From: an uncultured delta proteobacterium
GTDB lineage: Bacteria; Myxococcota; Myxococcia; SLRQ01
DNA length: 64,000 bases
Direction: 5' to 3'
NCBI GenBank assembly: GCA_963727485.1
Contig: CAVSGM010000002.1
Coordinates: forward strand, 198,854-262,853
Shown one piece after another: positions 39,891 to 50,389 of this stretch. The notes below the pieces were generated by a model that was given only the letters and a program-made list of their open reading frames with translations, searched no databases and had not been told where the DNA came from. The translations under genes were made by a program, and so were the position numbers. The stretch's first letter is position 1; every line of letters starts with the position of its first letter.

Positions 39891-39965
39891 GCGCGCGTAA
39901 CTCAGCGGTAGAGTGCCACCTTCACACGGTGGAAGTCGCTGGTTCGAACCCAGCCGCGCGTACCA
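39891..39965 (+). tRNA. tRNA-Val (anticodon CAC)
   Basis: GCGCGCGTAACTCAGCGGTAGAGTGCCACCTTCACACGGTGGAAGTCGCTGGTTCGAACCCAGCCGCGCGTACCA: 7-bp acceptor stem, D-stem ACTC/GAGT, anticodon stem CCACC/GGTGG with loop TTCACAC, T-arm GCTGG-TTCGAAC-CCAGC, encoded CCA. Confidence 0.9.
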
Positions 39966-40029
39966 TCTTCCCGCGCCCGCTCCCCCAGGTTGGGGGGCGG
40001 GCGCGGGCTTCTCGACGCCGCGCCTACTG

Positions 40030-41568
40030 ATGGCTGCTTCCGAGCGCAGGCCCCGGGCCCTGGTCGTCGACGACGACGACGGGATGCGTGGGAACATGGC
40101 CCACATCCTCGAGGCCGACGGCTTCGAGACGGTGGGCGCGGTCGACGGGATGGACGCCCTGGGGCGGCTCGAGCGCGCCAGCTTCGACATCGCCCTCCTC
40201 GACATCCAGATGCCGGGCATCGACGGCCTGGAGACGCTGAAGCGGATCCGGGAGAAGGCGCCGGAGGTCGAGGTGGTGATGGTCACGGTGCTCAAGGAGA
40301 TCCCCAAGGTCGTCGAGGCGATGAAGCTCGGGGCCTTCGACTTCCTCACCAAGGACTTCCGGGCCAGCGAGCTGCAGCTCAAGGCCCAGCAGGCCCTGAC
40401 CCACAGGCGCACCGCCCGGCAGATGGCCTACCTCCGCGACGAGGTGGAGCGACAGGCCCCCGGCGAGATGATCATGGGCGACGGGCCGGCGATGCGCGAG
40501 GTGTCGACCCTGGTCGACAAGGTGGCGCCGCTCCCCGCCACGGTGCTGGTCCTCGGCGAGAGCGGGACGGGCAAGGAGCTGCTGGCCAGGCGTCTCCACC
40601 GCATCTGGTCCGGGGGCGACAAGAAGAAGCCCTTCGTCACGGTGAACCTGGCGGCGATGCCCGCCAGCCTCATCGAGTCCCAGCTCTTCGGGCACGAGAA
40701 GGGGGCGTTCACCGGGGCCACCGAGCAGCGCCTGGGGAAGTTCGAGCTCGCCGACGGAGGCACGCTCTTCCTCGACGAGATTGGCGAGCTGCGCCTCGAT
40801 CTCCAGGCGAAGCTCCTGCGCGCCATCCAGGAGCGCGAGGTGGAGCGCCTCGGGGGCAAGCGTCCGGTGCCGGTGGATGTCCGGCTCATCACCGCCACCA
40901 ACGTCGACCTCAAGGAGGCGGTCCACGCCGGTCGCTTCCGTGAAGACCTCTACTACCGCATCAACGTCATCCCCATCCGGCTGCCGCCCCTGCGCGAGCG
41001 CATCGAGGACGTGCCGGTGCTGGCGCGGCACTTCGCCCGGAAGGCGGGGCAGCGGTTCAACCGGCCAGTGCCCGAGCTCACCGACACGGCGCTCGAGGTG
41101 CTGATGCGCTACCCCTGGCCCGGGAACGTCCGGGAGCTGGAGAACCGCATCGCCGGGCTGGTGGCGGTGCAGGACCGGCCGGTCATCGACGACGTGGACC
41201 TGCCCATCGAGTTCAGCTACCCGCGCTTCTACGACGAGGCCCGGCGCAAGAAGGCGGACGGGCTGGCGGTGGCGCTCACGGCCTTCGAGCGGTCGTTCAT
41301 CGCCATGACCCTGGAGAAGACGGGGTGGCACCGGAAGCAGGCGGCGGCGGAGCTGGGCATCGGCTACTCGACGCTGAAGAAGAAGCTCAAGAAGCTGGGT
41401 GCTCGCGCCGCCCGGGGGGCGCCACGCCGACGGGGACCCGGACGGCGACGACGACGAGGGGTGAGCCCTCACCGGCGCCGGAGGGACGTGGCGCGCGTGG
41501 CCGGCGTCGTCAGGCGGCGTCGGGGGACGACTCGGCCACCGGGGGACTGGCGCGCCGGGGCAGGGTGA
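40030..41568 (+). CDS. NtrC-family sigma-54-dependent response regulator (receiver, AAA+, HTH) with Arg-rich C-terminal extension
   Basis: MAASERRPRALVVDDDDG...DIALLDIQMPGIDG (receiver) ...GESGTGKELLA...GAFTGA...ELADGGTLFLDEIGEL...AAELGIGYSTLKKKLKKLG (HTH); the last about 55 aa are low-complexity and overlap the convergent kinase gene, so the true stop may be earlier. Confidence 0.85.
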   Translation: MAASERRPRALVVDDDDGMRGNMAHILEADGFETVGAVDGMDALGRLERASFDIALLDIQMPGIDGLETLKRIREKAPEVEVVMVTVLKEIPKVVEAMKLGAFDFLTKDFRASELQLKAQQALTHRRTARQMAYLRDEVERQAPGEMIMGDGPAMREVSTLVDKVAPLPATVLVLGESGTGKELLARRLHRIWSGGDKKKPFVTVNLAAMPASLIESQLFGHEKGAFTGATEQRLGKFELADGGTLFLDEIGELRLDLQAKLLRAIQEREVERLGGKRPVPVDVRLITATNVDLKEAVHAGRFREDLYYRINVIPIRLPPLRERIEDVPVLARHFARKAGQRFNRPVPELTDTALEVLMRYPWPGNVRELENRIAGLVAVQDRPVIDDVDLPIEFSYPRFYDEARRKKADGLAVALTAFERSFIAMTLEKTGWHRKQAAAELGIGYSTLKKKLKKLGARAARGAPRRRGPGRRRRRGVSPHRRRRDVARVAGVVRRRRGTTRPPGDWRAGAG

Positions 41569-43288
41569 CCACGAAGACGGCGCCGCCGCTGGGGCGGTTC
41601 CCGGCGGAGACGGTGCCCCCCTGCTCCTCGACGATGCGACGGACCACGGCGAGGCCGAGGCCGAGGCCGTTGCCCGAGCCCTTGGTGGTGCGGAAGGCGT
41701 CGAAGAGGTCGTGGAGGAGCGCCGGGGGGATGCCCGGGCCGTCGTCCTCGACCACCACGGTGACCCGGCTCGCCTCGAGGCCGACGCGGAGGGTGACGTG
41801 TCCCCCGTGGTCGCGGAGGGCGTCGAGGGCGTTCTCCACGAGGTTGCGCACGGCGCGCTCGAGGGCCAGGGCGTCGACCTCGACCATGGGGTCCCCGTCG
41901 CCCTCGACGACCAGGGCGAGGGAGATGCCGCGGGTGCGGGCGGTGGCGGTGAGGCTGCCCTCGAGGCGACGGAGGAGGTCGGGGAGGAGCACCGGCGCGG
42001 CCTCGGCCTCCCGGGGGTTGGCGAACTCCGAGAGGTCGGCGAAGAGCCGGTCGATGTAGGCCTGCTCCCGGTCGAGGTTCGCCTCGAGGTCTTGGCGGGT
42101 GGCCTCGGTCTCGGGGATGTCGAGGAAGGTCCGGACGTGGGTGATGAGGTGCTGGAACGGGCGCTTGAGATCGTGGGCCAGCCCGCCGGCGATGCGGCCG
42201 AAGAACGCCAGGCGCTCCTGGCGGCGAATCTCCTGGGTGAGGGTGCCGAGGTCCTCGGCCATGTGGTTGAAGCCCCGGGCCAGGTCGCCGAGCTCGTCGG
42301 GGCGGTCGTGGTGGACGCGGACGGTGAAGTCGCCCTCGCCGATGCGCCGGGCGCCGGCGGCGAGGCGCTCCACGGGGTTGACGATGGTCCGGGCGCCGAT
42401 GAAGGTCACGGTGCCCACGGCGAGGAGCGCCGCGAAGAGCACGATGAGCAGGCCGAGGCCGAGCGCCCGCGCCTGGGCGAAGGCGTCCCGCGCAGGTGTC
42501 TCCACCACGGCGACCCAGTCGGTGCCCGGGACGGAGGCGGCGGCGCCGACCACCTGCAGCCCGTCGCGGCGGTCATAGGTCGCCGACACGGCGCCGCCGT
42601 CCTTCTCCACCTCGTTCACGATCTTCGGGGTGGGGTAGGGGCGGCGCTGGATGGCGTAGACGAGCTCCTTGGCGATGCCGTGGGCGAAGAGGTGCCCGTG
42701 GCGGTCGACGAGGTAGGTGTAGCCGGTGCGACCGAGGCGCAGGTCGCGGACCATGGACCACAGCTCCAGGGTGTCGACCTCGGCGGCGAGCGCCCCCACG
42801 GTCCGCCCGAGGCGGTGGACCGGCACGGCCACGGCCATCACCGGCAGCAGGTCGTCGCCGATGACCACCTGGGTCACCTGGGGCTTGCCGGTGGCCAGGG
42901 TCTTGTCCGCGGCGCCGCGCACCAGCTTGGAGGGCCCCTTGTCCGGCAGCAAGGTGCTGAAGGTCCGTTTGCCCCCGTGGTCGAAGTCGACCAGGTAGCG
43001 CAGGGTGCGGTCCTCGAGGAGCGCCCGCGCCAGCACCCGGTCGGTCTCGGTGGCGTCGAGCCCGTTGCCCGGGCTCACCGCCGCCCCCACCGCCCGCACC
43101 ACGTCCACGCGCCCGCGGACGAAGGCCCCGACCCGCTTGGCCACCTCCGACGCCGCCGCCCGGGTCCCGGCGGTCACGCCCTCCTGCGCCCCGCGGATTC
43201 CGGACCAGGTGGCGTAGACCCCGTAGGCGCCGAGGGGAAAGAGCGTGGTGAGCGCCAGGAAGAGCAGGAGCTTGGCGCGCAGGCGCAT
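41510..43288 (-). CDS. Sensor histidine kinase (two TM segments, periplasmic sensor domain, HAMP, HisKA, HATPase)
   Basis: MRLRAKLLLFLALTTLFPLGAYGVY (TM1), about 270-aa extracytoplasmic region, LGLGLLIVLFAALLAVGTVTFIGA (TM2), ...FFGRIAGGLAHDLKRPFQ (H-box)...ENALDA...GNGLGLGLAVVRRIVE... Confidence 0.85.
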   Translation of the reverse strand: MRLRAKLLLFLALTTLFPLGAYGVYATWSGIRGAQEGVTAGTRAAASEVAKRVGAFVRGRVDVVRAVGAAVSPGNGLDATETDRVLARALLEDRTLRYLVDFDHGGKRTFSTLLPDKGPSKLVRGAADKTLATGKPQVTQVVIGDDLLPVMAVAVPVHRLGRTVGALAAEVDTLELWSMVRDLRLGRTGYTYLVDRHGHLFAHGIAKELVYAIQRRPYPTPKIVNEVEKDGGAVSATYDRRDGLQVVGAAASVPGTDWVAVVETPARDAFAQARALGLGLLIVLFAALLAVGTVTFIGARTIVNPVERLAAGARRIGEGDFTVRVHHDRPDELGDLARGFNHMAEDLGTLTQEIRRQERLAFFGRIAGGLAHDLKRPFQHLITHVRTFLDIPETEATRQDLEANLDREQAYIDRLFADLSEFANPREAEAAPVLLPDLLRRLEGSLTATARTRGISLALVVEGDGDPMVEVDALALERAVRNLVENALDALRDHGGHVTLRVGLEASRVTVVVEDDGPGIPPALLHDLFDAFRTTKGSGNGLGLGLAVVRRIVEEQGGTVSAGNRPSGGAVFVVTLPRRASPPVAESSPDAA

Positions 43289-44616
43289 CTAGTGGGCCTT
43301 GGCCGGGCGGATGGAGAGGGCCAGCGAGTAGGGCTCGGTCGAGTCGGGCTTGGGATGGACGAAGCGGAAGCGCTTGGAGGTGACGGCGACGCGGGGGAGC
43401 ACGCCCAGCGGCACGAAGGGCGGGTTCTCCGCGAGGCGCTTGCGGATGTCCTTCCAGGTCGCGCCCTTGGCGAGCATGGCGTCGAGGACCGGGTCGTGGT
43501 GGTGGCCGACGTTCAGGCGGGCGCTCGATGGCGACATACAACGTTGGGGCCCGAGCGGGTGGCGCAAGTTGATGAAGCTAGGCGGAGGTCGAGCTTCCAT
43601 GGGCTGGCCAAGTCGCTGCTTGGGCCACATGCTGTCACATGAGCCTGGACTCCTGCATCCGCTAGGCTCACGAAGAGGTCTTCGGTCGCCATGCGCGATC
43701 TCCTCGAGGTTGACGATCTCGAGGTCTAGCGGCTTGGTGATGGTCTTCAGCATCCTCTTGCACCCAGCGCGGAGGGGCGTGTCAGAACCGACTTGCCGAT
43801 GGACCCGTGCGGGCGTCGGGGCCAGCCCATAGGCGACCTGCCAACGCCCGGAAGGCAGGAGTGATGGCTCTGGCAATGCACCGCCGGACCGCCGTGACTT
43901 TGGAGTAGGGGCTCATCTTCGTTGAAGACGAGCACAGCCTCGGTGTTCCTCTGCAGTACGGAGTCACCAGTCCTACCCGAGGCAGCGAGCAGGCGATCGT
44001 GCTGTAGGGGGAGCCCGCCGGCCACGTCGGCGTCGCCGGCTAGCAGGTGGGCGAAGACGGCCACGCGGCCCCGAGACGTGTCGGACGACCATCAGCCGAG
44101 GGTCGTGCATGGGCTGCACGGCGCGCGAGACAGATCCGGCTGGGCGCTCTGGGAGCGACCCGGTACGGGCCTGCGCCAATCCACGCCCCGTCCCGACCTC
44201 TTCGGGCAACGGGTGCCCACGGGACCGCGTGCATGTCCGGTGTCGGCAGGTGCAGGATACAGCCTGCCGTTGCGCTGCCAGTGCCAGCTCTCGCTCTGGG
44301 ACCCCAGATGCAGCTCACGGCGGATCGCGCTGACGAGGTCGCGCGGCCGGATCGGGGAGCCGTCCTGGAAGTACCAGGTCGGCTTGAGGTTCGACCGCAC
44401 AAGGATTCTCGCTGGGGCAGTGCAGGGCAGCCGGATAAGACGTGATCCGAGTGGAGGCGCAATTAGGTCGAGCAGGGTGGCCGAGTCGCCGTTGTGGGGC
44501 ATGCCGGGAACGAGCGGCTCGAGAGGGCGGGGTGAGACCCACACGAGCGGTCGCTCCTGGCGCTGGCGGGCGTGGCCTGACACAGGCCGACAGGAGAAGC
44601 CCAAGCGCAAGCGCAA
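43289..44616 (-). other. Gene remnant/degraded region: intact-looking C-terminal about 80 codons (43289-43540) followed upstream by about 1.1 kb of lower-GC sequence with stops in all frames
   Basis: Reverse strand ...HHHDPVLDAMLAKGATWKDIRKRLAENPPFVPLGVLPRVAVTSKRFRFVHPKPDSTEPYSLALSIRPAKAH* is protein-like with high-GC codon use; upstream only short discontinuous ORFs (e.g. ...TWYFQDGSPIRPRDLVSAIRRELHLGSQSESWHWQRNG...); local GC about 58-62%. Confidence 0.35.
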
Positions 44617-44735
44617 GCGGTACAGTCCTTCGGTGCCTCACCGAGACAGCCTAGTCGTAGTCGCGCAGTCCGACGGAAGACAAAGGCCCCCGTCGCTGAC
44701 GAGGGCCTCTCGAATCTCAGAACGGTGACCGCGGG

Positions 44736-44804
44736 TTAGAAGCCGGCGAGGGCGTCGCAGGGGATGCGCTTCCGATTCCGCTTGTTGAGGGGCTTCTTGA
44801 CCAT
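44736..44804 (-). CDS. 22-codon cationic small ORF (MVKKPLNKRNRKRIPCDALAGF) immediately downstream of the radical SAM gene; candidate peptide
   Basis: ATG preceded by AAGGAAGG at about 7 nt; 69 nt to TAA; single Cys; about 120 nt after the radical SAM stop on the same strand. No homology could be checked. Confidence 0.3.
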   Translation of the reverse strand: MVKKPLNKRNRKRIPCDALAGF

Positions 44805-44925
44805 GGCGAACCTTCCTTTCGGGAAGTGGGGGGACTTCGTTGGGGGGGACTTCAGGGGGCAGAGGTCGGGCTTGCAGGTCCCCACACGTGGGGAGCCTCC
44901 CGGCCCCGGCGTCGGACAAAGGCGG

Positions 44926-46254
44926 CTAGGCCGCCACTTCCTCCGAGGGCATCCGGCCCTCGTAGAACTCGTCGAGGTAGCGCCGCTTCAGGGTCTCGCG
45001 GCCCACCGTGTCGAAGTAGTCGTGCTCACAGCTCACGCCGAGGGTGCCGTTGCGGCGGTAGGTCGTCGCCCGGCAACCGCCGGCGCACACGGGCAGGTAC
45101 TCGCACTGGCCGCAGTCCTTCACCGGGTCGAGGCTCTCGAGGAGCTCGACGCGGGGCAGCCAGCGGTCGTCGGTGATCCGGCCGACGGCCATCTTCGGAT
45201 CGCCCACCAGGACGTCGCACTTGTAGAGGTAGCCGCCGGCGTCGACGAGCAGGTACTGGTCCATGTGGAGGCCACAGGGGCCGAGGCCGAACTCGGGCTC
45301 GGGGCTGAGGCCCGAGCTCACCGCCTTCATCTGGAGGTGGACCAGGCCGTCGGGGTCGGCGTCGGAGATGCGGGTGGCGCAGTCGCCGTCGCCGCGTCCG
45401 TCGAGGACCGGCTTGAACTTCAGCTCGCTGATGGCGTCGGCGAGCCCCTCGCGGCGCAGCACGTCGGCGAGCTCGCCGTACGCGTGCTCGAGGCCCGCGG
45501 GCACGTTGCTGCCGATGTGGATGCGCACCCGCCCGGCGACCGCCTTGAGGTTCGCGAGGATCTGGTCCCAGGAGCCCGTCCCGTCCTTGCGAACCCGGCT
45601 CTGGTCGTGGTGGTGCTTGGGCCCGTCGAGGGTGACCTTGACCGACTCGAGCCCCAAGGGCGCCATGGCGTCGACGAAGGGCCGGTCGAGGAGGGCGCCG
45701 TTGGTGATGATCCGGCAGCTGAAGGCGCGACCGTCCTCGGCGAGCTCGCGCTGGAAACGCTCGGCGGTGCGGAGGATGAGGGGCTTCTTGAGGAGCGGCT
45801 CGCCGCCGAAGTAGGTGAGCTCCAGGGTGTGGAGGTCGTAGCGGGCCATCCGGCGCCGGACCCAGCCGTGGAGCGCCTGCTCCACCGTCTTGCCCATCCC
45901 CGGCCCGCTGGGGCCACCCTCGGCCTCGTAGCAGTAGGGGCACCCGAAGTTGCAGTTCTCGGTGACCAGCACCCGCAGGCGCAGCACTCCGTCGCCCTGC
46001 TTCATCCCCAGCATGAAGTCGCGGAGGGCGGCGTCGTCGGCGACCTCGTCCTCGACGAGGAAGCCCTCGGCCGAAAGGTAGTCGACCTCCTCCTGCTCGA
46101 GGGCGCTCGCCGGCGGCCCGCCCGACAGGGACCCGACCCAGCCGAGGGCCCGGTCGTCGAGGCCGACCAGGTTGTCGGTCAGGGTGTTGTAGAGGACGTG
46201 CTCCCCGGGGAGTGGGAAGTCTCGGATGAGGACGTGGAACCGGGTGAGCTGCAT
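44926..46254 (-). CDS. Radical SAM/SPASM-domain protein (peptide-maturase-like), 442 aa
   Basis: MQLTRFHVLIRDFPLPGEHVLYNTLTD... about 95-aa N-terminal domain, then VTENCNFGCPYCYE (CxxxCxxC), GGEPLL; C-terminal auxiliary-cluster motifs C-x18-C and CGQCEYLPVCAGGC (Cx2Cx5Cx3C) plus terminal VSC; GGGAG RBS. Confidence 0.85.
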   Translation of the reverse strand: MQLTRFHVLIRDFPLPGEHVLYNTLTDNLVGLDDRALGWVGSLSGGPPASALEQEEVDYLSAEGFLVEDEVADDAALRDFMLGMKQGDGVLRLRVLVTENCNFGCPYCYEAEGGPSGPGMGKTVEQALHGWVRRRMARYDLHTLELTYFGGEPLLKKPLILRTAERFQRELAEDGRAFSCRIITNGALLDRPFVDAMAPLGLESVKVTLDGPKHHHDQSRVRKDGTGSWDQILANLKAVAGRVRIHIGSNVPAGLEHAYGELADVLRREGLADAISELKFKPVLDGRGDGDCATRISDADPDGLVHLQMKAVSSGLSPEPEFGLGPCGLHMDQYLLVDAGGYLYKCDVLVGDPKMAVGRITDDRWLPRVELLESLDPVKDCGQCEYLPVCAGGCRATTYRRNGTLGVSCEHDYFDTVGRETLKRRYLDEFYEGRMPSEEVAA

Positions 46255-46299
46255 GGGGTGTCTCCCTGAATCGCCCCCCGAGAGAGCAGGGAGCGTGCC

Positions 46300-46660
46300 A
46301 CCCGCCAGGGGGCTCCAAATCGAGCCCTCCCGACTCGGCTCAGCGGTCCAAGCTGGAAATCTCAATTGATTTCAACCACCTGTCACCAAGGCTCAAAATA
46401 GAGCCCCACGTGGCTACCCTCGCCCGAAGCGACACAAGCCACCGGAATCACTGTGAATCGCCTGGACCAGGCCCCGAATGGGGCTTATCCCGACCCCAGG
46501 GGACTCTTCCAAAAAACACCTGTGATCACAAGGCGTTGGAAAGAGGGTGGCGACCCCGCCGGGGCACGTCGCCCAGCTTCGGGAAAGGGCTCCATTTGGA
46601 GCCCTTTCGTCCCGGGGCGGGGCCAGATCACGGGGAAATACCAATAAAAACCGTGATTTG
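46300..46660. promoter_or_regulatory. AT-richer intergenic control region with multiple palindromes between the radical SAM gene and the divergent small-protein/kinase operon
   Basis: GGGCTC-caaatc-GAGCCC (about 46310-46327), GGCTC-aaaata-GAGCC (about 46390-46405), GAAAGGGCTCCA-tt-TGGAGCCCTTTC (about 46583-46608), TGTGATCACA (about 46521-46530), TCAATTGA, ATCACGG-N18-CCGTGAT; codon usage in short ORFs here is atypical. Confidence 0.3.
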
Positions 46661-46741
46661 GGCGCAGCCGCTCCTAGGCGAGCCCTCAGGTCTCACCCTA
46701 GAGCCAGTGGTGGCACGCCGCTGGCAAAAGAGACCAGTGCA

Positions 46742-46990
46742 ATGTCCAGGCTCGCCAAGGTCAAGGTCGTCGAGCTCGACGGGAAAAAGGTGTTCCTCCA
46801 CTTCTACGAGGACGTCTCGACCCTCGGGACGCCCCGCTACTCGGTGGAGATCCGCTTCGGCCCCGAGGACCGCGTCGTCTTCGACGGCCCCAGCATCTCG
46901 GACCTCGAGGCGACCACCCAGGCCTGCCTCCCTGCCACCTGGGCCAGCCGGCGGATGCTCGCCGGCGCGGCCTACGGCGCCCCCCACTGA
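46742..46990 (+). CDS. Small protein (82 aa, hypothetical) translationally coupled to the downstream histidine kinase
   Basis: MSRLAKVKVVELDGKKVFLHFYEDVSTLGTPRYSVEIRFGPEDRVVFDGPSISDLEATTQACLPATWASRRMLAGAAYGAPH; stop overlaps the kinase ATG (TGATG). Confidence 0.5.
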   Translation: MSRLAKVKVVELDGKKVFLHFYEDVSTLGTPRYSVEIRFGPEDRVVFDGPSISDLEATTQACLPATWASRRMLAGAAYGAPH

Positions 46991-47865
46991 TGCAACCCCT
47001 CGCCTCCCAGCCGACGCCCTCGCGTCCCTACCGCGCCGATCCCATGCCCCGCGACCCCGAGCTTCACGCCGCCCGCCTCGTCGAGCTGGGCAGCCTGGTA
47101 CCGGGGCTGGTGCACGAGCTCTCGAACCCGGCCGCGGTCCTCCGGGGCAACCTCGGCGCCGTCGTCGACCACGCCGACACCCTGGGCCGACTGGTCAACG
47201 GCCTCGACCAGGGGCAGGACGCCTCGGCCCTGCGCCGGGACCTCGAGCTCGATGACACCGCCATCGACCTCGCCGAGCTGGTGGGCGAGTCCGCCGGCGC
47301 CCTCGACGAGCTGGTCTCCCTCCTCGGCGACATCCGTCACTACGCCGCCGGCGCCGAGGCCGAGGCCGAGGCCGATCTCGCCTCGGCCGTCGCCGCCGCC
47401 CTGCGCCTCGCCACCTACGAGACCAAGTACCGGGCCGCCGTGAGCGTCGGCGTCGGCGACCTCCCTCGGATCGCCCTGTGCCCCGTCCACCTGGTGCAGC
47501 TGGTGCTGGCCCTCATCCTCAACGCCGCCCAGGCCCTCGCCGACCACCGGCAGCTCCACGGCGACCTGGGCCACGTGTCCCTCTCGGCCAGGGCCGAGGG
47601 CGACGACCTCGTCGTCCTCGAGGTCCGCGACGACGGCCCCGGCGTGTCCCCCGACCTCGCCGACCGCGTCTTCGAGCCCGGGGTCACCTCGCGGCCCGGG
47701 GCCAGGGGCATGGGCCTGTACCACGCCCGGAACCTCCTCGAGCGCGCCGGTGGCGCCCTCGTCCTCCAACCGCCCCGTGGCGGGGGCGCCGTCTTCGTCG
47801 CGCGCCTGCCCGCCCTCTCCGACGACATTCACAGTGAGGCCATCGGTCCTGTCCACAAGACATAG
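46990..47865 (+). CDS. Soluble histidine kinase core (HisKA plus HATPase, no TM or recognisable sensor domain)
   Basis: ...ARLVELGSLVPGLVHELSNPAAVLRGNLG (H-box near N-terminus)...ILNAAQAL...LEVRDDGPGVSPDLADRVFEPGVTSRPGARGMGLYHARNLLERAGGAL. Confidence 0.75.
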   Translation: MQPLASQPTPSRPYRADPMPRDPELHAARLVELGSLVPGLVHELSNPAAVLRGNLGAVVDHADTLGRLVNGLDQGQDASALRRDLELDDTAIDLAELVGESAGALDELVSLLGDIRHYAAGAEAEAEADLASAVAAALRLATYETKYRAAVSVGVGDLPRIALCPVHLVQLVLALILNAAQALADHRQLHGDLGHVSLSARAEGDDLVVLEVRDDGPGVSPDLADRVFEPGVTSRPGARGMGLYHARNLLERAGGALVLQPPRGGGAVFVARLPALSDDIHSEAIGPVHKT

Positions 47866-47989: not shown

Positions 47990-48379
47990 CTACGCCTCGG
48001 GCGTCTCGGTCTCCCGCTTGCGCAGCATGTACTTCACCTTGCGCATCAGCCCGTCGAGGTCGAAGGGTTTCTCGATGAAGTCCTCGGCCCCGAGCTCCAG
48101 GCCGAGCTGGCGGCTGAAGGGGTCGCCCCGGGCCGAGAGGAAGAGGACCGGGATCGCCCGGGTCTGGTCGTCGGCCTTCAGCGCCCGGCACACGTCCCGG
48201 CCGTCCATCCGCGGCATGTTCACGTCGAGGACCACCAGGTCGGGTTGGTCGCTCTGGGCGAGGGCGAGGCCCTCGACGCCATCGGCCGCGGTGATCACCG
48301 TGAAGCCGTGGCGCTCGGCGGTGCGACGGAAGATCGTGCGCAGCTCGGCGTCGTCGTCGACGAAGAGGAGGCGAGCCAT
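47990..48379 (-). CDS. Single-domain (CheY-like) response regulator
   Basis: MARLLFVDDDAELRTIFRRTAERHGFTVITAADGVEGLALAQSDQPDLVVLDVNMPRMDGRDVCRALK...IPVLFLSARGD...; 129 aa; convergent with the kinase core. Confidence 0.8.
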   Translation of the reverse strand: MARLLFVDDDAELRTIFRRTAERHGFTVITAADGVEGLALAQSDQPDLVVLDVNMPRMDGRDVCRALKADDQTRAIPVLFLSARGDPFSRQLGLELGAEDFIEKPFDLDGLMRKVKYMLRKRETETPEA

Positions 48380-48451
48380 GGCGGGCATTATAGGGATCGA
48401 TCGCGTCCGCGTCTCTCCATCGGTCGCGCTCCGGTGATACGCTCCCGGGCC

Positions 48452-49702: not shown

Positions 49703-50389
49703 CTAGTGGACCCGGCGGTAGACGCCGACCACCACGCCCAGGATCTGGGTGTCCCGGAAGTCCTGCTGGTGGACGTAGATGGGCTGCATCGCCGCGTTCG
49801 CCGGCTGGAAGCGGATGCGGTCGCCCTCGGGGAAGTAGCGCTTCACCGTGGCGTCGCCGTCGATCATGGCGACCACGATGTCGCCGGCGTCGGCGGTGAG
49901 CTGCTTCTTCACGAAGATGTAGTCGCCGTCGAGGATGCCGTCGTCGATCATGGACTCACCGCTGACCCGGAGGCCGAAGACCTTCTTGGTGGTCCCCCCG
50001 AGGAAGAAGCTGTCCACGTGCACCGTGTCGGTGACGTTCTCCTCGGCGAGGATCGGGCTCCCGGCGGCGACCCGCCCGAGGACCGGGATCGCGACCAGGT
50101 CGCCCTCGGGGAAGATCGCCGGCACCGCCACGTCGACCGCGGTGGGGTGGGGCGCCTCGCCGAGGGCGCGCAGGGCCGGGGCGGTGAGGGCGAGAGCCCG
50201 GGACTTCTTGTCGCCACGCTCGATGTACCCCTTGCGCTCGAGGGCCTTGAGGTGGTCGTTGACGCCGTTGGTGGACCTGATGCCGAAGGCGGTGCCAATC
50301 TCGCGGATGGTCGGGGGGTAGCCGCTCCCGTTGATGCTCTGGTGGATGAAGCCGAGGATGTCCCGCTGCCGCTGGGTGAGCTCCTGCAT
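49703..50389 (-). CDS. lexA: LexA repressor
   Basis: [58 protein letters not shown]...[24 protein letters not shown]...[17 protein letters not shown] (S24 peptidase Ser/Lys region). Confidence 0.9.

What the first reader, a model, noticed from the sequence alone, without database searches (positions are those of the whole stretch)
44736..46254. Radical SAM/SPASM maturase-like gene with an adjacent 22-codon cationic ORF: candidate uncharacterised RiPP-type module
The 442-aa protein has the canonical CxxxCxxC radical SAM motif (VTENCNFGCPYCYE), a full SPASM auxiliary-cluster signature (Cx2Cx5Cx3C) and an about 95-aa N-terminal extension of the size seen in peptide-recognition domains of RiPP maturases. 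Directly downstream on the same strand, behind a strong RBS, is a 22-codon ORF, MVKKPLNKRNRKRIPCDALAGF, whose size and charge fit a precursor or leader-like peptide but match no family I can name from memory. The module lies in an accessory-looking context next to regulators.
Basis: partly seen in the sequence, partly recalled or inferred. Interest (0 to 1): 0.8.

Follow-up and report, generated by a model that had tools for sequence, protein, structure and literature searches.

The report
Radical-SAM enzyme, mini-peptide, sensor cassette
The 22-codon reading frame is a real, conserved gene: the likely substrate of the neighbouring radical-SAM enzyme, in a multi-phylum cassette that also carries a peptide-binding protein, a sensor kinase and a sigma-54 activator, so it may be an undescribed peptide signalling system in Gram-negative-type bacteria.

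Summary
Observation confirmed. Window 44926-46254 (-) encodes a 442-aa radical SAM/SPASM enzyme with an N-terminal peptide-recognition (RRE-like) fold. Its best structural match is CteB and its best curated family is TIGR04280 "geopeptide maturase", but it scores below that cutoff. The 22-codon ORF (44736-44804, -) is not chance. A homologous 21-33-aa ORF sits directly beside the enzyme gene in about 73 of 77 related loci from Myxococcota, Acidobacteriota, Nitrospirae-labelled and deltaproteobacterial genomes. All share a basic N-terminus, one invariant Cys at residue 16-20 and a hypervariable tail. No Pfam or NCBIfam model recognises these peptides.

The regulators are not accessory context. 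The conserved cassette is rSAM, peptide, SBP_bac_5 lipoprotein, dCache/HAMP histidine kinase, sigma-54 response regulator and an 80-aa protein. It is driven by a sigma-54 promoter (46285-46300) with three dyad sites.

Best reading: a leader-guided, Cys-centred modification yields a small RiPP. It most plausibly acts as a self-induced signal with agr/comQXPA-like logic. The chemistry, export and sensing steps are inferred, not shown. In this genome the binding-protein gene is a multi-frameshift pseudogene.

Verdict: an uncharacterised variant of a known kind, and interesting.

The parts
44926..46254 (-). Radical SAM/SPASM peptide maturase gene (442 aa plus stop). Covers the RRE-like domain (residues 1-~88), the rSAM barrel and the SPASM domain.
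   Evidence: AF2 pLDDT 90.9. Best PDB match is CteB.
45931..45954 (-). Codons 101-108, the CxxxCxxC radical-SAM cluster motif (CNFGCPYC).
   Evidence: C105 and C108 are invariant and C101 is conserved in at least 90% of 135 homologues.
45073..45114 (-). Codons 381-394, the SPASM Cx2Cx5Cx3C auxiliary-cluster motif (CGQCEYLPVCAGGC).
   Evidence: TIGR04085 scores 49.1 bits against cutoff 27 over residues 327-406. C381, C384 and C390 are invariant.
44736..44804 (-). 22-codon precursor-peptide gene, MVKKPLNKRNRKRIPCDALAGF. It has a basic leader, an invariant Cys16 and a variable 6-residue tail.
   Evidence: Orthologues in L087, L005, L003 and L001. Family alignment A2 has a single invariant Cys. 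Position-specific HMM hits. GC3 phase.
44811..44819 (-). Shine-Dalgarno AAAGGAAGG, 6 nt upstream of the peptide ATG.
   Evidence: Read directly. Conserved in L005 and L087.
44876..44898 (-). Hairpin between the rSAM stop codon and the peptide RBS.
   Evidence: A hairpin at the same place but with a different sequence occurs in L005 and L003. Not significant against shuffles.
44677..44707 (-). Terminator- or attenuator-like element after the peptide stop codon: GC-rich 10-bp stem, 3-nt loop, then UUUGUCUU.
   Evidence: ViennaRNA fold -31.4 kcal/mol, z -2.4. The consensus scan did not flag it.
46285..46300 (-). Sigma-54 (-24/-12) promoter TGGCACGCTCCCTGCT; the motif starts 46 nt upstream of the rSAM ATG.
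   Evidence: Only match in the 64 kb window. The same element lies 28-57 nt upstream of the enzyme start in relatives, against 2 hits in 1.2 Mb elsewhere.
46311..46326 (.). Dyad GGCTC-N6-GAGCC, site 1. Candidate activator-binding site.
   Evidence: All three exact copies in the window lie in this intergenic region. Their positions -72, -151 and -350 are conserved in L005, and in L001 and L003 with variations.
46390..46405 (.). Dyad GGCTC-N6-GAGCC, site 2.
46588..46603 (.). Dyad GGCTC-N6-GAGCC, site 3.
43289..44641 (-). Pseudogene of the cassette's SBP_bac_5-type lipoprotein. The lipobox LLSAC is still readable; the gene carries at least 4 frameshifts plus an in-frame stop.
   Evidence: tblastn against the intact L005 and L003 orthologues gives colinear pieces in alternating frames. 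No ORF longer than 195 aa. GC3 periodicity collapses and switches phase. Intact orthologues hit PF00496.
41510..43288 (-). dCache + HAMP + HATPase sensor histidine kinase (592 aa), cassette member K.
   Evidence: Pfam. Conserved position downstream of the SBP gene in most loci.
40024..41568 (+). NtrC-type sigma-54-dependent response regulator (REC + AAA+ + HTH_8), cassette member R.
   Evidence: Pfam. Adjacent to the cassette in most loci with sequence at that position.
46742..46990 (+). 82-aa conserved protein S of unknown fold, divergently transcribed from the enzyme gene.
   Evidence: Conserved next to the cassette in Myxococcota, and after the kinase gene in Acidobacteriota. No Pfam hit and no PDB fold match.
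46990..47865 (+). 291-aa soluble histidine kinase H. Its start codon overlaps the stop codon of S. Specific to the window clade.
   Evidence: HATPase_c hit. Synteny in L003, L005 and L001.

Best explanation
**Shown.** The 442-aa gene encodes a three-domain radical SAM/SPASM RiPP maturase: an RRE-like domain, a radical-SAM barrel and a SPASM domain with two auxiliary clusters. The 22-codon ORF 122 nt downstream is a genuine conserved gene. It belongs to a large peptide family with no database model. Members have a cationic N-terminal segment (M-[KV]-[IK]-K...), one invariant Cys at a fixed distance from the N-terminus (residue 16-20), and a short tail that varies even between close relatives.

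**Inferred.**
- The RRE-like domain binds the conserved N-terminal segment as a leader.
- The enzyme performs one Cys-centred radical modification. Most likely this is a single intramolecular thioether, which would have to be sactionine-like (S to C-alpha) because no acceptor side chain is conserved. Less likely it is an oxidation of the Cys itself, as in anSME or SbtM.
- The result would be a small ring-plus-tail peptide.

**Shown by sequence and synteny.** The enzyme-peptide operon sits behind a sigma-54 promoter with three dyad sites. Across several phyla it is physically coupled to an SBP_bac_5 lipoprotein, a dCache/HAMP histidine kinase and an NtrC-type sigma-54 activator.

**Inferred.** The modified peptide is released and sensed in the periplasm by the binding protein and kinase. 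It then feeds back through the sigma-54 activator on its own operon. This is an autoinducer circuit with the logic of agrBDCA or comQXPA.

In this particular genome the binding-protein gene has decayed. The loop is therefore either broken or runs through the kinase alone.
For: **Enzyme.**
- CxxxCxxC and Cx2Cx5Cx3C motifs.
- SPASM model above cutoff. The top-scoring NCBIfam hits are peptide maturases; TIGR04280 leads with 222.7 bits over its full length.
- The AF2 model (pLDDT 90.9) has an N-terminal bbb-aaa module.
- Foldseek's best match is CteB, aligned over full length with TM 0.66-0.72.
- A profile search of the PDB gives CteB at 2.3e-39.

**Peptide.**
- Orthologues MVKKPQNKRNRKRMPCDIITY, MVKKPQNKKARKAFPCDTISF, MIKKPTKKTETRRRAPCQLWLG and MIKKTTKTKQNTKRMPCQWMIS lie downstream of enzymes that are 82, 78, 59 and 53% identical.
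- 66 of 77 eligible loci have an HMM hit in position, and 7 more were found by inspection.
- Cys is the only invariant column in the alignment.
- Cys sits at residue 16-20 in all 73 peptides, and 70 of the 73 have exactly one Cys.
- Six loci carry tandem copies, and one precursor has a duplicated core.
- GC3 is about 0.9 in frame.

**Cassette.** The order R-A-P-B-K-S (Acidobacteriota) or S|A-P-B-K|R (Myxococcota) is seen across about 80 loci, with Pfam identities for the members.

**Regulation.**
- The window has a single sigma-54 motif, upstream of the enzyme gene.
- The motif is conserved in relatives.
- All three exact dyads lie in the same intergenic region and sit at conserved positions.
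Against: - There is no experimental or expression data of any kind.
- No exporter, leader peptidase or ABC permease/ATPase was among the families followed across loci, but only a few neighbour clusters were identified by Pfam or NCBIfam. How a highly basic 22-mer would reach the periplasm is unexplained.
- In this window the proposed co-receptor gene is a pseudogene.
- Tight linkage to a two-component system is equally expected if the peptide is merely an output of that system.
- The peptide HMM was built from 43 of the peptides it then detects, so only the positional specificity is independent evidence.
- The chemistry is inferred only from the nearest relatives. The enzyme scores below the trusted cutoff of every curated subfamily.
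- The RRE-like domain gives no sequence-level PqqD/RRE hit in Pfam.
- 4 of 77 loci showed no peptide.
Confidence: 0.6

Rival explanations
1. This is a RiPP that is an output, not a signal. The SBP, dCache kinase and sigma-54 activator sense some external cue such as oligopeptides, a metal complex or a nutrient. They then switch on the enzyme-peptide operon. The product would act as an effector, for example an antimicrobial, a thiol-based metal-binding peptide or an intracellular cofactor-like molecule.
For: - The cassette architecture and sigma-54 promoter fit an output equally well.
- SBP_bac_5 relatives include nickel- and metallophore-binding proteins such as NikA and CntA.
- No exporter was seen among the families followed across loci, which fits an intracellular product.
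- The enzyme and peptide stay intact here although the SBP gene has decayed.
Against: - The binding protein and kinase genes lie downstream of the peptide gene on the same strand, apparently in the same sigma-54 operon. That arrangement gives the positive feedback typical of autoinducer circuits.
- A peptide-type binding protein is retained with a peptide gene across several phyla.
- The tail varies between close relatives in a pherotype-like way while the leader stays constant.
Confidence: 0.3
2. The short ORF is not the enzyme's substrate. It would instead be a translated regulatory leader for the downstream binding-protein and kinase genes, or an independent small protein. The radical SAM enzyme would modify something else, such as the binding protein or another protein, in the way anSME and QhpD do.
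For: - A terminator- or attenuator-like hairpin follows the ORF.
- anSME is among the structural matches.
Against: - The enzyme has an RRE-like leader-binding domain that anSME lacks.
- anSME and QhpD models score far below their cutoffs.
- Conservation is at the amino-acid level: an invariant Cys at fixed spacing and a conserved leader.
- The peptide occurs in tandem copies, once with a duplicated core, and once upstream of the enzyme gene (L016). These patterns are typical of RiPP precursors rather than attenuator leaders.
Confidence: 0.06
3. The short ORF is a chance open frame in GC-rich intergenic DNA.
For: GC-rich genomes produce many spurious ORFs.
Against: - The ORF is conserved in position, length, start codon, RBS and Cys across about 73 loci in several phyla.
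- The upstream spacer differs by indels that are not multiples of three, while the ORF stays in frame.
- GC3 phase fits a coding frame.
Confidence: 0.02

Closest known systems
TIGR04280 'geopeptide radical SAM maturase' (NCBIfam hypothetical equivalog, defined bioinformatically)
   Same: It is the best-scoring curated family for the window enzyme and for all 20 relatives scanned. Alignments cover the full length (1-418 of the enzyme against 1-417 of the 428-position model). It is likewise predicted to mature a short peptide.
   Different: Scores are 222.7 bits for the window enzyme and at most 353 bits for relatives, against a trusted cutoff of 400. By NCBI's criterion this is a sister clade, not a member. 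I could not retrieve a bona fide member, so I do not know whether true geopeptide loci share the peptide type or the SBP-kinase-sigma-54 cassette. No paper in the searchable library mentions the family.
CteB / SCIFF ranthipeptide maturases, and PapB
   Same: Same three-domain architecture of RRE, radical-SAM barrel and SPASM domain. CteB is the best sequence and structure match in the PDB. The substrates are Cys-containing ribosomal peptides.
   Different: SCIFF and freyrasin precursors carry six Cys residues or repeated CxxxD motifs; this family has one Cys and no conserved acceptor residue. TIGR03974 scores 85.9 against a cutoff of 425, and PapB NF047865 scores 118 against 340. Precursors here are only 21-33 aa.
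anSME and SbtM: radical SAM/SPASM enzymes that oxidise a single Cys or Sec (to formylglycine or a thio/seleno-oxazole)
   Same: Both carry out chemistry centred on one Cys using SPASM auxiliary clusters. anSME is a strong structural match. SbtM acts on a single Cys or Sec in a Geobacter peptide (PMC9204691).
   Different: anSME lacks the RRE domain and acts on sulfatases; its model scores 75.6 against a cutoff of 349. No SbtM-family model appeared among the 25 best hits shown. Neither is known to be linked to a sensor cassette.
agrBDCA and comQXPA peptide quorum-sensing operons of Firmicutes
   Same: The logic matches: a modifying enzyme, a short precursor with a conserved leader and a variable mature part, and a histidine kinase and response regulator in one locus, with an apparent self-regulated promoter. 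The Cys-plus-5-residue C-terminus in many members recalls the Cys-plus-4 ring of AIPs.
   Different: The proteins are unrelated: a radical SAM enzyme instead of AgrB or ComQ. The hosts are diderm. There is an extra periplasmic SBP_bac_5 component. The output is sigma-54 dependent. Secretion and sensing are untested.

Membership tests
Radical SAM superfamily (PF04055) | A CxxxCxxC cluster motif and a Pfam score above the gathering threshold. | tested here: met
   C101/C105/C108 are present. PF04055 scores 55.7 bits against 29.5.
SPASM-domain radical SAM enzymes (TIGR04085) | A C-terminal auxiliary-cluster domain with Cx2Cx5Cx3C, and a model score above cutoff. | tested here: met
   49.1 bits against cutoff 27 over residues 327-406. 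The motif spans C381-C394. Eight conserved Cys lie in the C-terminal half.
RRE-containing RiPP maturases | An N-terminal PqqD-like winged-helix domain (three strands plus three helices) that binds the leader peptide. | tested here: inconclusive
   The AF2 topology is E7-10, E18-23, E28-33, H34-45, H51-62, H70-86. The full-length structural alignment to CteB includes its RRE. However, there is no Pfam PqqD sequence hit, and leader binding was not tested.
TIGR04280 geopeptide radical SAM maturase | An HMM score at or above the trusted cutoff of 400 bits. | tested here: not met
   222.7 bits. The 20 relatives scanned score 238-353 bits.
TIGR04280 geopeptide radical SAM maturase | An adjacent 'geopeptide' precursor of the family's own type. 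| not testable with these tools
   No NCBIfam or Pfam model hit any of 11 peptides. No bona fide member locus could be retrieved.
SCIFF/ranthipeptide system (TIGR03974; CteB) | A maturase model score of at least 425 and a precursor with about six Cys residues. | tested here: not met
   85.9 bits. Precursors have one Cys in 70 of 73 cases.
PapB-type ranthipeptide maturases (NF047865) | A model score of at least 340 and CxxxD/E acceptor motifs in the precursor. | tested here: not met
   118.3 bits. The window peptide has Asp directly after Cys. Asp at +5 occurs only in some clades and is not conserved.
Anaerobic sulfatase maturase (TIGR03942) | A model score of at least 349, no RRE domain, and a sulfatase partner. 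| tested here: not met
   75.6 bits. An RRE-like domain is present. No sulfatase was among the conserved neighbours identified.
Sactipeptide / thioether RiPP (chemistry) | A Cys sulfur to carbon cross-link installed by the enzyme. | not testable with these tools
   Needs mass spectrometry and NMR of the co-expressed product.
Autoinducing-peptide quorum-sensing circuit (agr/com-like, functional class) | Precursor, modifying enzyme, sensor kinase and response regulator are genetically linked. | tested here: met
   The cassette is conserved across phyla, with domain identities from Pfam.
Autoinducing-peptide quorum-sensing circuit (agr/com-like, functional class) | The peptide is exported, sensed by the linked receptor, and induces its own operon. 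| not testable with these tools
   Only the promoter architecture is consistent (sigma-54 motif plus dyads). No exporter was found.

The most novel reading that the evidence does not exclude
The cassette is a RiPP-based autoinducing-peptide system of diderm bacteria (Myxococcota, Acidobacteriota, Nitrospirae-labelled and deltaproteobacterial genomes). A radical SAM/SPASM enzyme would turn a roughly 22-33-aa precursor into a small Cys-cross-linked peptide. That peptide would be sensed in the periplasm by a dedicated SBP_bac_5 co-receptor and a dCache kinase. It would then activate its own sigma-54 promoter through an NtrC-type regulator. The hypervariable tails would define pherotypes.
Probability: 0.35. 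Interest if true: 0.85.

Novelty: new variant of a known kind. Interest (0 to 1): 0.72.

Why it matters
Radical SAM/SPASM RiPPs are a known kind, but this clade has several features that make it worth pursuing.

- **Uncharacterised family.** I found no experimental characterisation of it. Its precursors are among the shortest for this class (21-33 aa, one Cys). Gene callers miss most of them, and no Pfam or NCBIfam model recognises them.
- **Breadth.** 422 candidate stretches in GTDB species-representative genomes encode relatives of the enzyme, mostly from poorly studied soil and sediment phyla.
- **Fixed coupling to a sensor system.** The peptide-binding protein, Cache kinase and sigma-54 activator give a concrete, testable candidate for peptide-based cell-cell signalling in Gram-negative-type bacteria, where such systems are rare. 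Communication in Acidobacteriota is essentially unknown.
- **Chemistry.** Even if the peptide is only an output, the family offers a minimal substrate for studying Cys-directed radical SAM chemistry.

Tried and rejected
**Searches that gave nothing**
- Eleven peptides were scanned against NCBIfam and four against Pfam at E up to 10. There were no hits.
- Exact look-up of 10 peptides found none of those of 26 aa or less. The roughly 30-aa ones are present only as 'hypothetical protein'.
- Literature searches for 'geopeptide' and 'TIGR04280' returned 0 papers. Searches for several radical SAM / histidine kinase / sigma-54 / quorum-sensing combinations found nothing describing this cassette.
- The source contig of the window protein was not on record.
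- Rfam found no RNA family in the locus above its gathering score.

**Attempt to reach true TIGR04280 members**
- I ran a second homology search from the highest-scoring relative, L036 (353 bits). Twenty proteins in all were scanned against NCBIfam (ten locus-derived enzymes including L036, then ten hits of that search). None reached 400 bits.

**Protein S**
- It has no Pfam hit and only 2 word-index homologues. The AF2 model has pLDDT 78. No PDB fold match scored below E = 0.3. It has 35 representative clusters. Its function remains unknown.

**Other checks**
- The consensus scan found no sigma-70 promoter and no terminator. The hairpin after the peptide gene was found only by folding.
- The intergenic hairpins are not significant against shuffles.

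**Readings rejected**
- The longer 49-aa GTG-started version of the ORF (44736-44885) was rejected. The upstream part is not conserved and differs by out-of-frame indels.
- General assembly error as the cause of the broken SBP gene was rejected. The flanking genes have clean GC3 phase.
Full report
**1. Observation**

The minus strand of the window carries an ORF at 44926-46254. From the ATG at 46254 it gives a 442-aa protein containing VTENCNFGCPYCYE (CxxxCxxC, C101/C105/C108) and CGQCEYLPVCAGGC (Cx2Cx5Cx3C, C381-C394). Pfam Radical_SAM scores 55.7 bits and the NCBIfam SPASM domain model scores 49.1 bits against a cutoff of 27; both pass their thresholds.

The stop codon (44926-44928) is followed by 121 nt of spacer and then an ATG at 44804. 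This ATG opens the 22-codon frame MVKKPLNKRNRKRIPCDALAGF, which ends at 44736. A GGAAGG Shine-Dalgarno (44811-44816) lies 6 nt before the ATG. Third-position GC in that frame is about 0.9, the coding signature of this roughly 70% GC genome.

**2. Is the short ORF real?**

Five close relatives of the enzyme were found in metagenomes and MAGs, at 82-53% identity. Four of their contigs extend past the stop codon. Each carries a 21-22-codon ORF at the same place:
- L087: MVKKPQNKRNRKRMPCDIITY
- L005: MVKKPQNKKARKAFPCDTISF
- L003: MIKKPTKKTETRRRAPCQLWLG
- L001: MIKKTTKTKQNTKRMPCQWMIS

The DNA alignment shows a conserved RBS, ATG, 'AAGAAG' and 'CCxTGC'. The spacer upstream differs by indels that are not multiples of three. 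The annotated start is therefore the ATG at 44804, not the GTG at 44885.

A scan of GTDB species-representative genomes found 422 candidate stretches that encode relatives of the enzyme, and 80 loci were fetched. In these loci a 21-33-aa ORF lies beside the enzyme gene, usually starting up to about 130 nt after its stop codon. Typical forms are:
- Myxococcota: MKIKRSxRKSxRxxxPCxxxxx
- Acidobacteriota: MKIxVVKKGxxxxKPxxxCPWxxDxPPExxK
- Nitrospirae-labelled MAGs: MKIIKKGEKKVKSTPVHCTFLIG
- deltaproteobacterial MAGs: MKLQVIKKGTRKDDKKTLYCAWFVST

In an alignment of 43 peptides the only invariant column is one Cys. An HMM built from that alignment was run against all 4,420 small ATG-ORFs of the loci.
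- It scored 10 bits or more in the expected position in 66 of 77 loci that had enough downstream sequence.
- It hit only one unrelated ORF elsewhere.
- Seven more loci have the peptide on inspection: longer variants, a GTG start, one upstream copy, one sub-threshold copy (9.1 bits) and one mis-positioned by my own stop-codon estimate.

The HMM is partly circular, but its positional specificity is independent evidence.

Among 73 peptides, the Cys sits at residue 16-20 in every case, and 70 have exactly one Cys. The segment before the Cys carries a net charge of +4 to +6. Six loci have 2-3 tandem copies, and one precursor has a duplicated core. These are the hallmarks of RiPP precursors.

None of the peptides hits any Pfam or NCBIfam model. 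Those of 26 aa or less are absent from a 15-billion-protein collection, and longer ones appear only as 'hypothetical protein'.

**3. The enzyme**

The best NCBIfam hit is TIGR04280 'geopeptide radical SAM maturase', with 222.7 bits over its full length against a cutoff of 400. Next come CefB, TIGR04463, Clo7bot, PapB, the nif11-type maturase, DynA, the SCIFF maturase and QhpD. Anaerobic sulfatase maturase scores only 75.6 bits.

AlphaFold2 was run with 135 homologues and gave pLDDT 90.9 and pTM 0.89. The model begins with three strands and three helices (residues 7-86), the RRE topology, followed by the radical-SAM barrel and the SPASM domain.

Foldseek's best PDB matches, in order:
- CteB, the SCIFF thioether synthase, aligned over its whole length including its RRE (TM 0.66-0.72)
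- TigE
- anSME
- ChlB

A profile search of PDB sequences also puts CteB first, at 2.3e-39.

By architecture the enzyme is therefore a leader-dependent peptide maturase. It fails the trusted cutoff of every curated subfamily, so I do not file it in any of them.

**4. Surroundings: a conserved cassette, not accessory context**

Clustering of neighbouring ORFs and mapping of representatives show a fixed gene set.
- Acidobacteriota: sigma-54 response regulator, rSAM, peptide, SBP_bac_5, dCache/HAMP histidine kinase and an 80-aa protein S, all on one strand.
- Myxococcota: S is divergent upstream. rSAM, peptide, SBP and kinase follow on the other strand. The response regulator is convergent downstream.

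Pfam confirms SBP_bac_5 at up to 285 bits. The nearest named relatives are oligopeptide, nickel and opine binding proteins. Pfam also confirms dCache_1 + HAMP + HATPase_c for the kinase and REC + Sigma54_activat + HTH_8 for the regulator.

The SBP orthologues of the window clade (L005, L003) begin with lipoprotein signal peptides, and a readable lipobox remains in the window's copy. No ABC permease or ATPase, exporter or peptidase was among the families followed across loci.

The window has the Myxococcota arrangement:
- S: 46742-46990 (+)
- a clade-specific soluble kinase H: 46990-47865 (+)
- rSAM, then the peptide (both on the minus strand)
- kinase K: 41510-43288 (-)
- regulator R: about 40024-41568 (+)

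**5. Regulation**

The only match to TGGCAC-N5-YTGCW in the 64 kb window is TGGCACGCTCCCTGCT at 46285-46300 (-); the motif starts 46 nt upstream of the enzyme's ATG.

The same -24/-12 element lies 28-57 nt upstream of the enzyme start in 18 of 81 loci under a strict pattern, against 2 hits in 1.2 Mb elsewhere in the loci. Under a slightly relaxed pattern it appears in 18 of 24 loci inspected; Acidobacteriota use TGGAAC-N5-TTGC.

All three exact copies in the window of the dyad GGCTC-N6-GAGCC fall in the 487-nt rSAM/S intergenic region, at 46311, 46390 and 46588. Equivalent dyads sit at about -72, -151 and -350 in L005, and at similar positions in L001, L003 and L087. They are good candidates for binding sites of the HTH_8 activator. 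Binding itself is inferred.

After the peptide stop codon there is a GC-rich hairpin followed by UUUGUCUU (44677-44707; -31.4 kcal/mol, z -2.4). A comparable GC stem follows the peptide gene in L005. This may attenuate read-through into the sensor genes.

**6. A broken part in this genome**

The window has no intact ORF where the SBP gene should be (43289-44641). tblastn with the intact L005 and L003 orthologues gives colinear pieces that alternate between all three frames, plus an in-frame stop.

GC3 periodicity is 0.93-1.0 throughout the kinase gene and 0.95-1.0 through nearly all of the enzyme gene. It collapses and switches phase across this interval. This is a genuine multi-frameshift pseudogene rather than general assembly noise.

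**7. Mechanism**

Shown:
- The enzyme class and architecture.
- A conserved co-located peptide with an invariant Cys at fixed spacing.
- A sigma-54 promoter.
- Conserved linkage to the binding protein, kinase and activator.

Inferred: the RRE-like domain binds the conserved cationic N-terminal segment and presents the Cys to the active site.

The nearest characterised relatives (CteB, PapB) make Cys thioethers. No acceptor side chain is conserved in the tail, so an S-to-C-alpha (sactionine-type) link is the most economical guess. Chemistry on the Cys itself is the alternative:
- formylglycine, as made by anSME
- a thio-oxazole, as made by Geobacter SbtM on a single Cys or Sec (PMC9204691)

Many Myxococcota and Nitrospirae-type peptides end exactly five residues after the Cys. 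The tail is also hypervariable between enzymes that are 82% identical, while the leader is nearly constant. This pattern resembles pherotype diversification in AgrD and ComX.

Three points make an autoinducing signal the most plausible function:
- the peptide-type periplasmic binding protein,
- the Cache kinase,
- the location of both genes downstream of the peptide gene, behind the same sigma-54 promoter.

The main rival is that the peptide is simply an output of that two-component system.

Weak points of the signal model are the absence of any exporter or protease, and the decayed binding-protein gene in this genome.

**8. Comparison with the known, and novelty**

As a radical SAM/SPASM RiPP module this is a known kind. 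As a family it is uncharacterised:
- It falls below the cutoff of TIGR04280, which is itself only a bioinformatic 'hypothetical equivalog'.
- Its precursors have no model.
- I found no paper describing the cassette.

I could not obtain a true TIGR04280 locus: twenty proteins were scanned and the best scored 353 bits. It remains possible that Geobacter 'geopeptide' loci have the same cassette, which would make this a new member rather than a new variant.

I rate it a new variant of a known kind, with interest 0.72. The most novel reading not excluded is a RiPP-type autoinducer system in diderm phyla, with probability about 0.35.

Noticed in passing
window 43289-44641 (-): The SBP_bac_5 lipoprotein gene of the cassette is a pseudogene with at least 4 frameshifts and an in-frame stop. 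The flanking enzyme, peptide and kinase genes are intact, and GC3 phase collapses only in this interval.
   Followed up: yes
window 46255-46741: The divergent intergenic region holds the window's only sigma-54 promoter match and all three exact copies of a 16-bp dyad, GGCTC-N6-GAGCC. Two one-mismatch copies lie at 46669-46684 and 46690-46705.
   Followed up: yes
window 39891-39965 (+): A tRNA-Val (CAC) lies just upstream of the sigma-54 response regulator gene. The GTG-extended ORF 39913-41568 overlaps it, so the real start of the regulator is about 40024-40030.
   Followed up: partly
window 46742-47865 (+) and 47990-48430 (-): An 82-aa protein S of unknown fold is translationally coupled to a 291-aa sensor-less histidine kinase, with a stand-alone receiver protein nearby. 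This extra module is conserved in the window clade (S and H in L003 and L005, S in L001; an adjacent receiver gene was called only in L003). In Acidobacteriota, S instead follows the Cache kinase gene.
   Followed up: partly
L081 5475-5621; L072, L075, L079 downstream of the rSAM gene: One Acidobacteriota precursor carries two copies of the core (..KPSTCPWMVDVPE.. twice). Three loci carry an additional Cys-less paralogue ending ..LRPWLVDVxVDxLR, next to 2 normal copies.
   Followed up: no
L016 about 1400-1680; L082 5440-5560: In a Bryobacteraceae locus the precursor (..LKIKVGSARLQPDEPSNCPWGFD..) lies upstream of the enzyme gene instead of downstream. In L082 the peptide appears to start with GTG.
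   Followed up: partly
L004 1546-1668 versus L003 5470-5630: Two metagenome contigs encode the identical 489-aa enzyme but differ immediately after the stop codon. L004 lacks the peptide ORF within the 120 nt available. This may be strain variation or an assembly chimera.
   Followed up: no
window 44876-44898 (-): A hairpin lies between the enzyme stop codon and the peptide RBS. L005 and L003 have a hairpin at the same position with a different sequence. It is not significant against shuffles.
   Followed up: partly
window 49703-50389 (-): A LexA repressor gene lies about 3.5 kb from the cassette. LexA is also near the cassette in L001 and L002, so this flank is syntenic within the clade.
   Followed up: no
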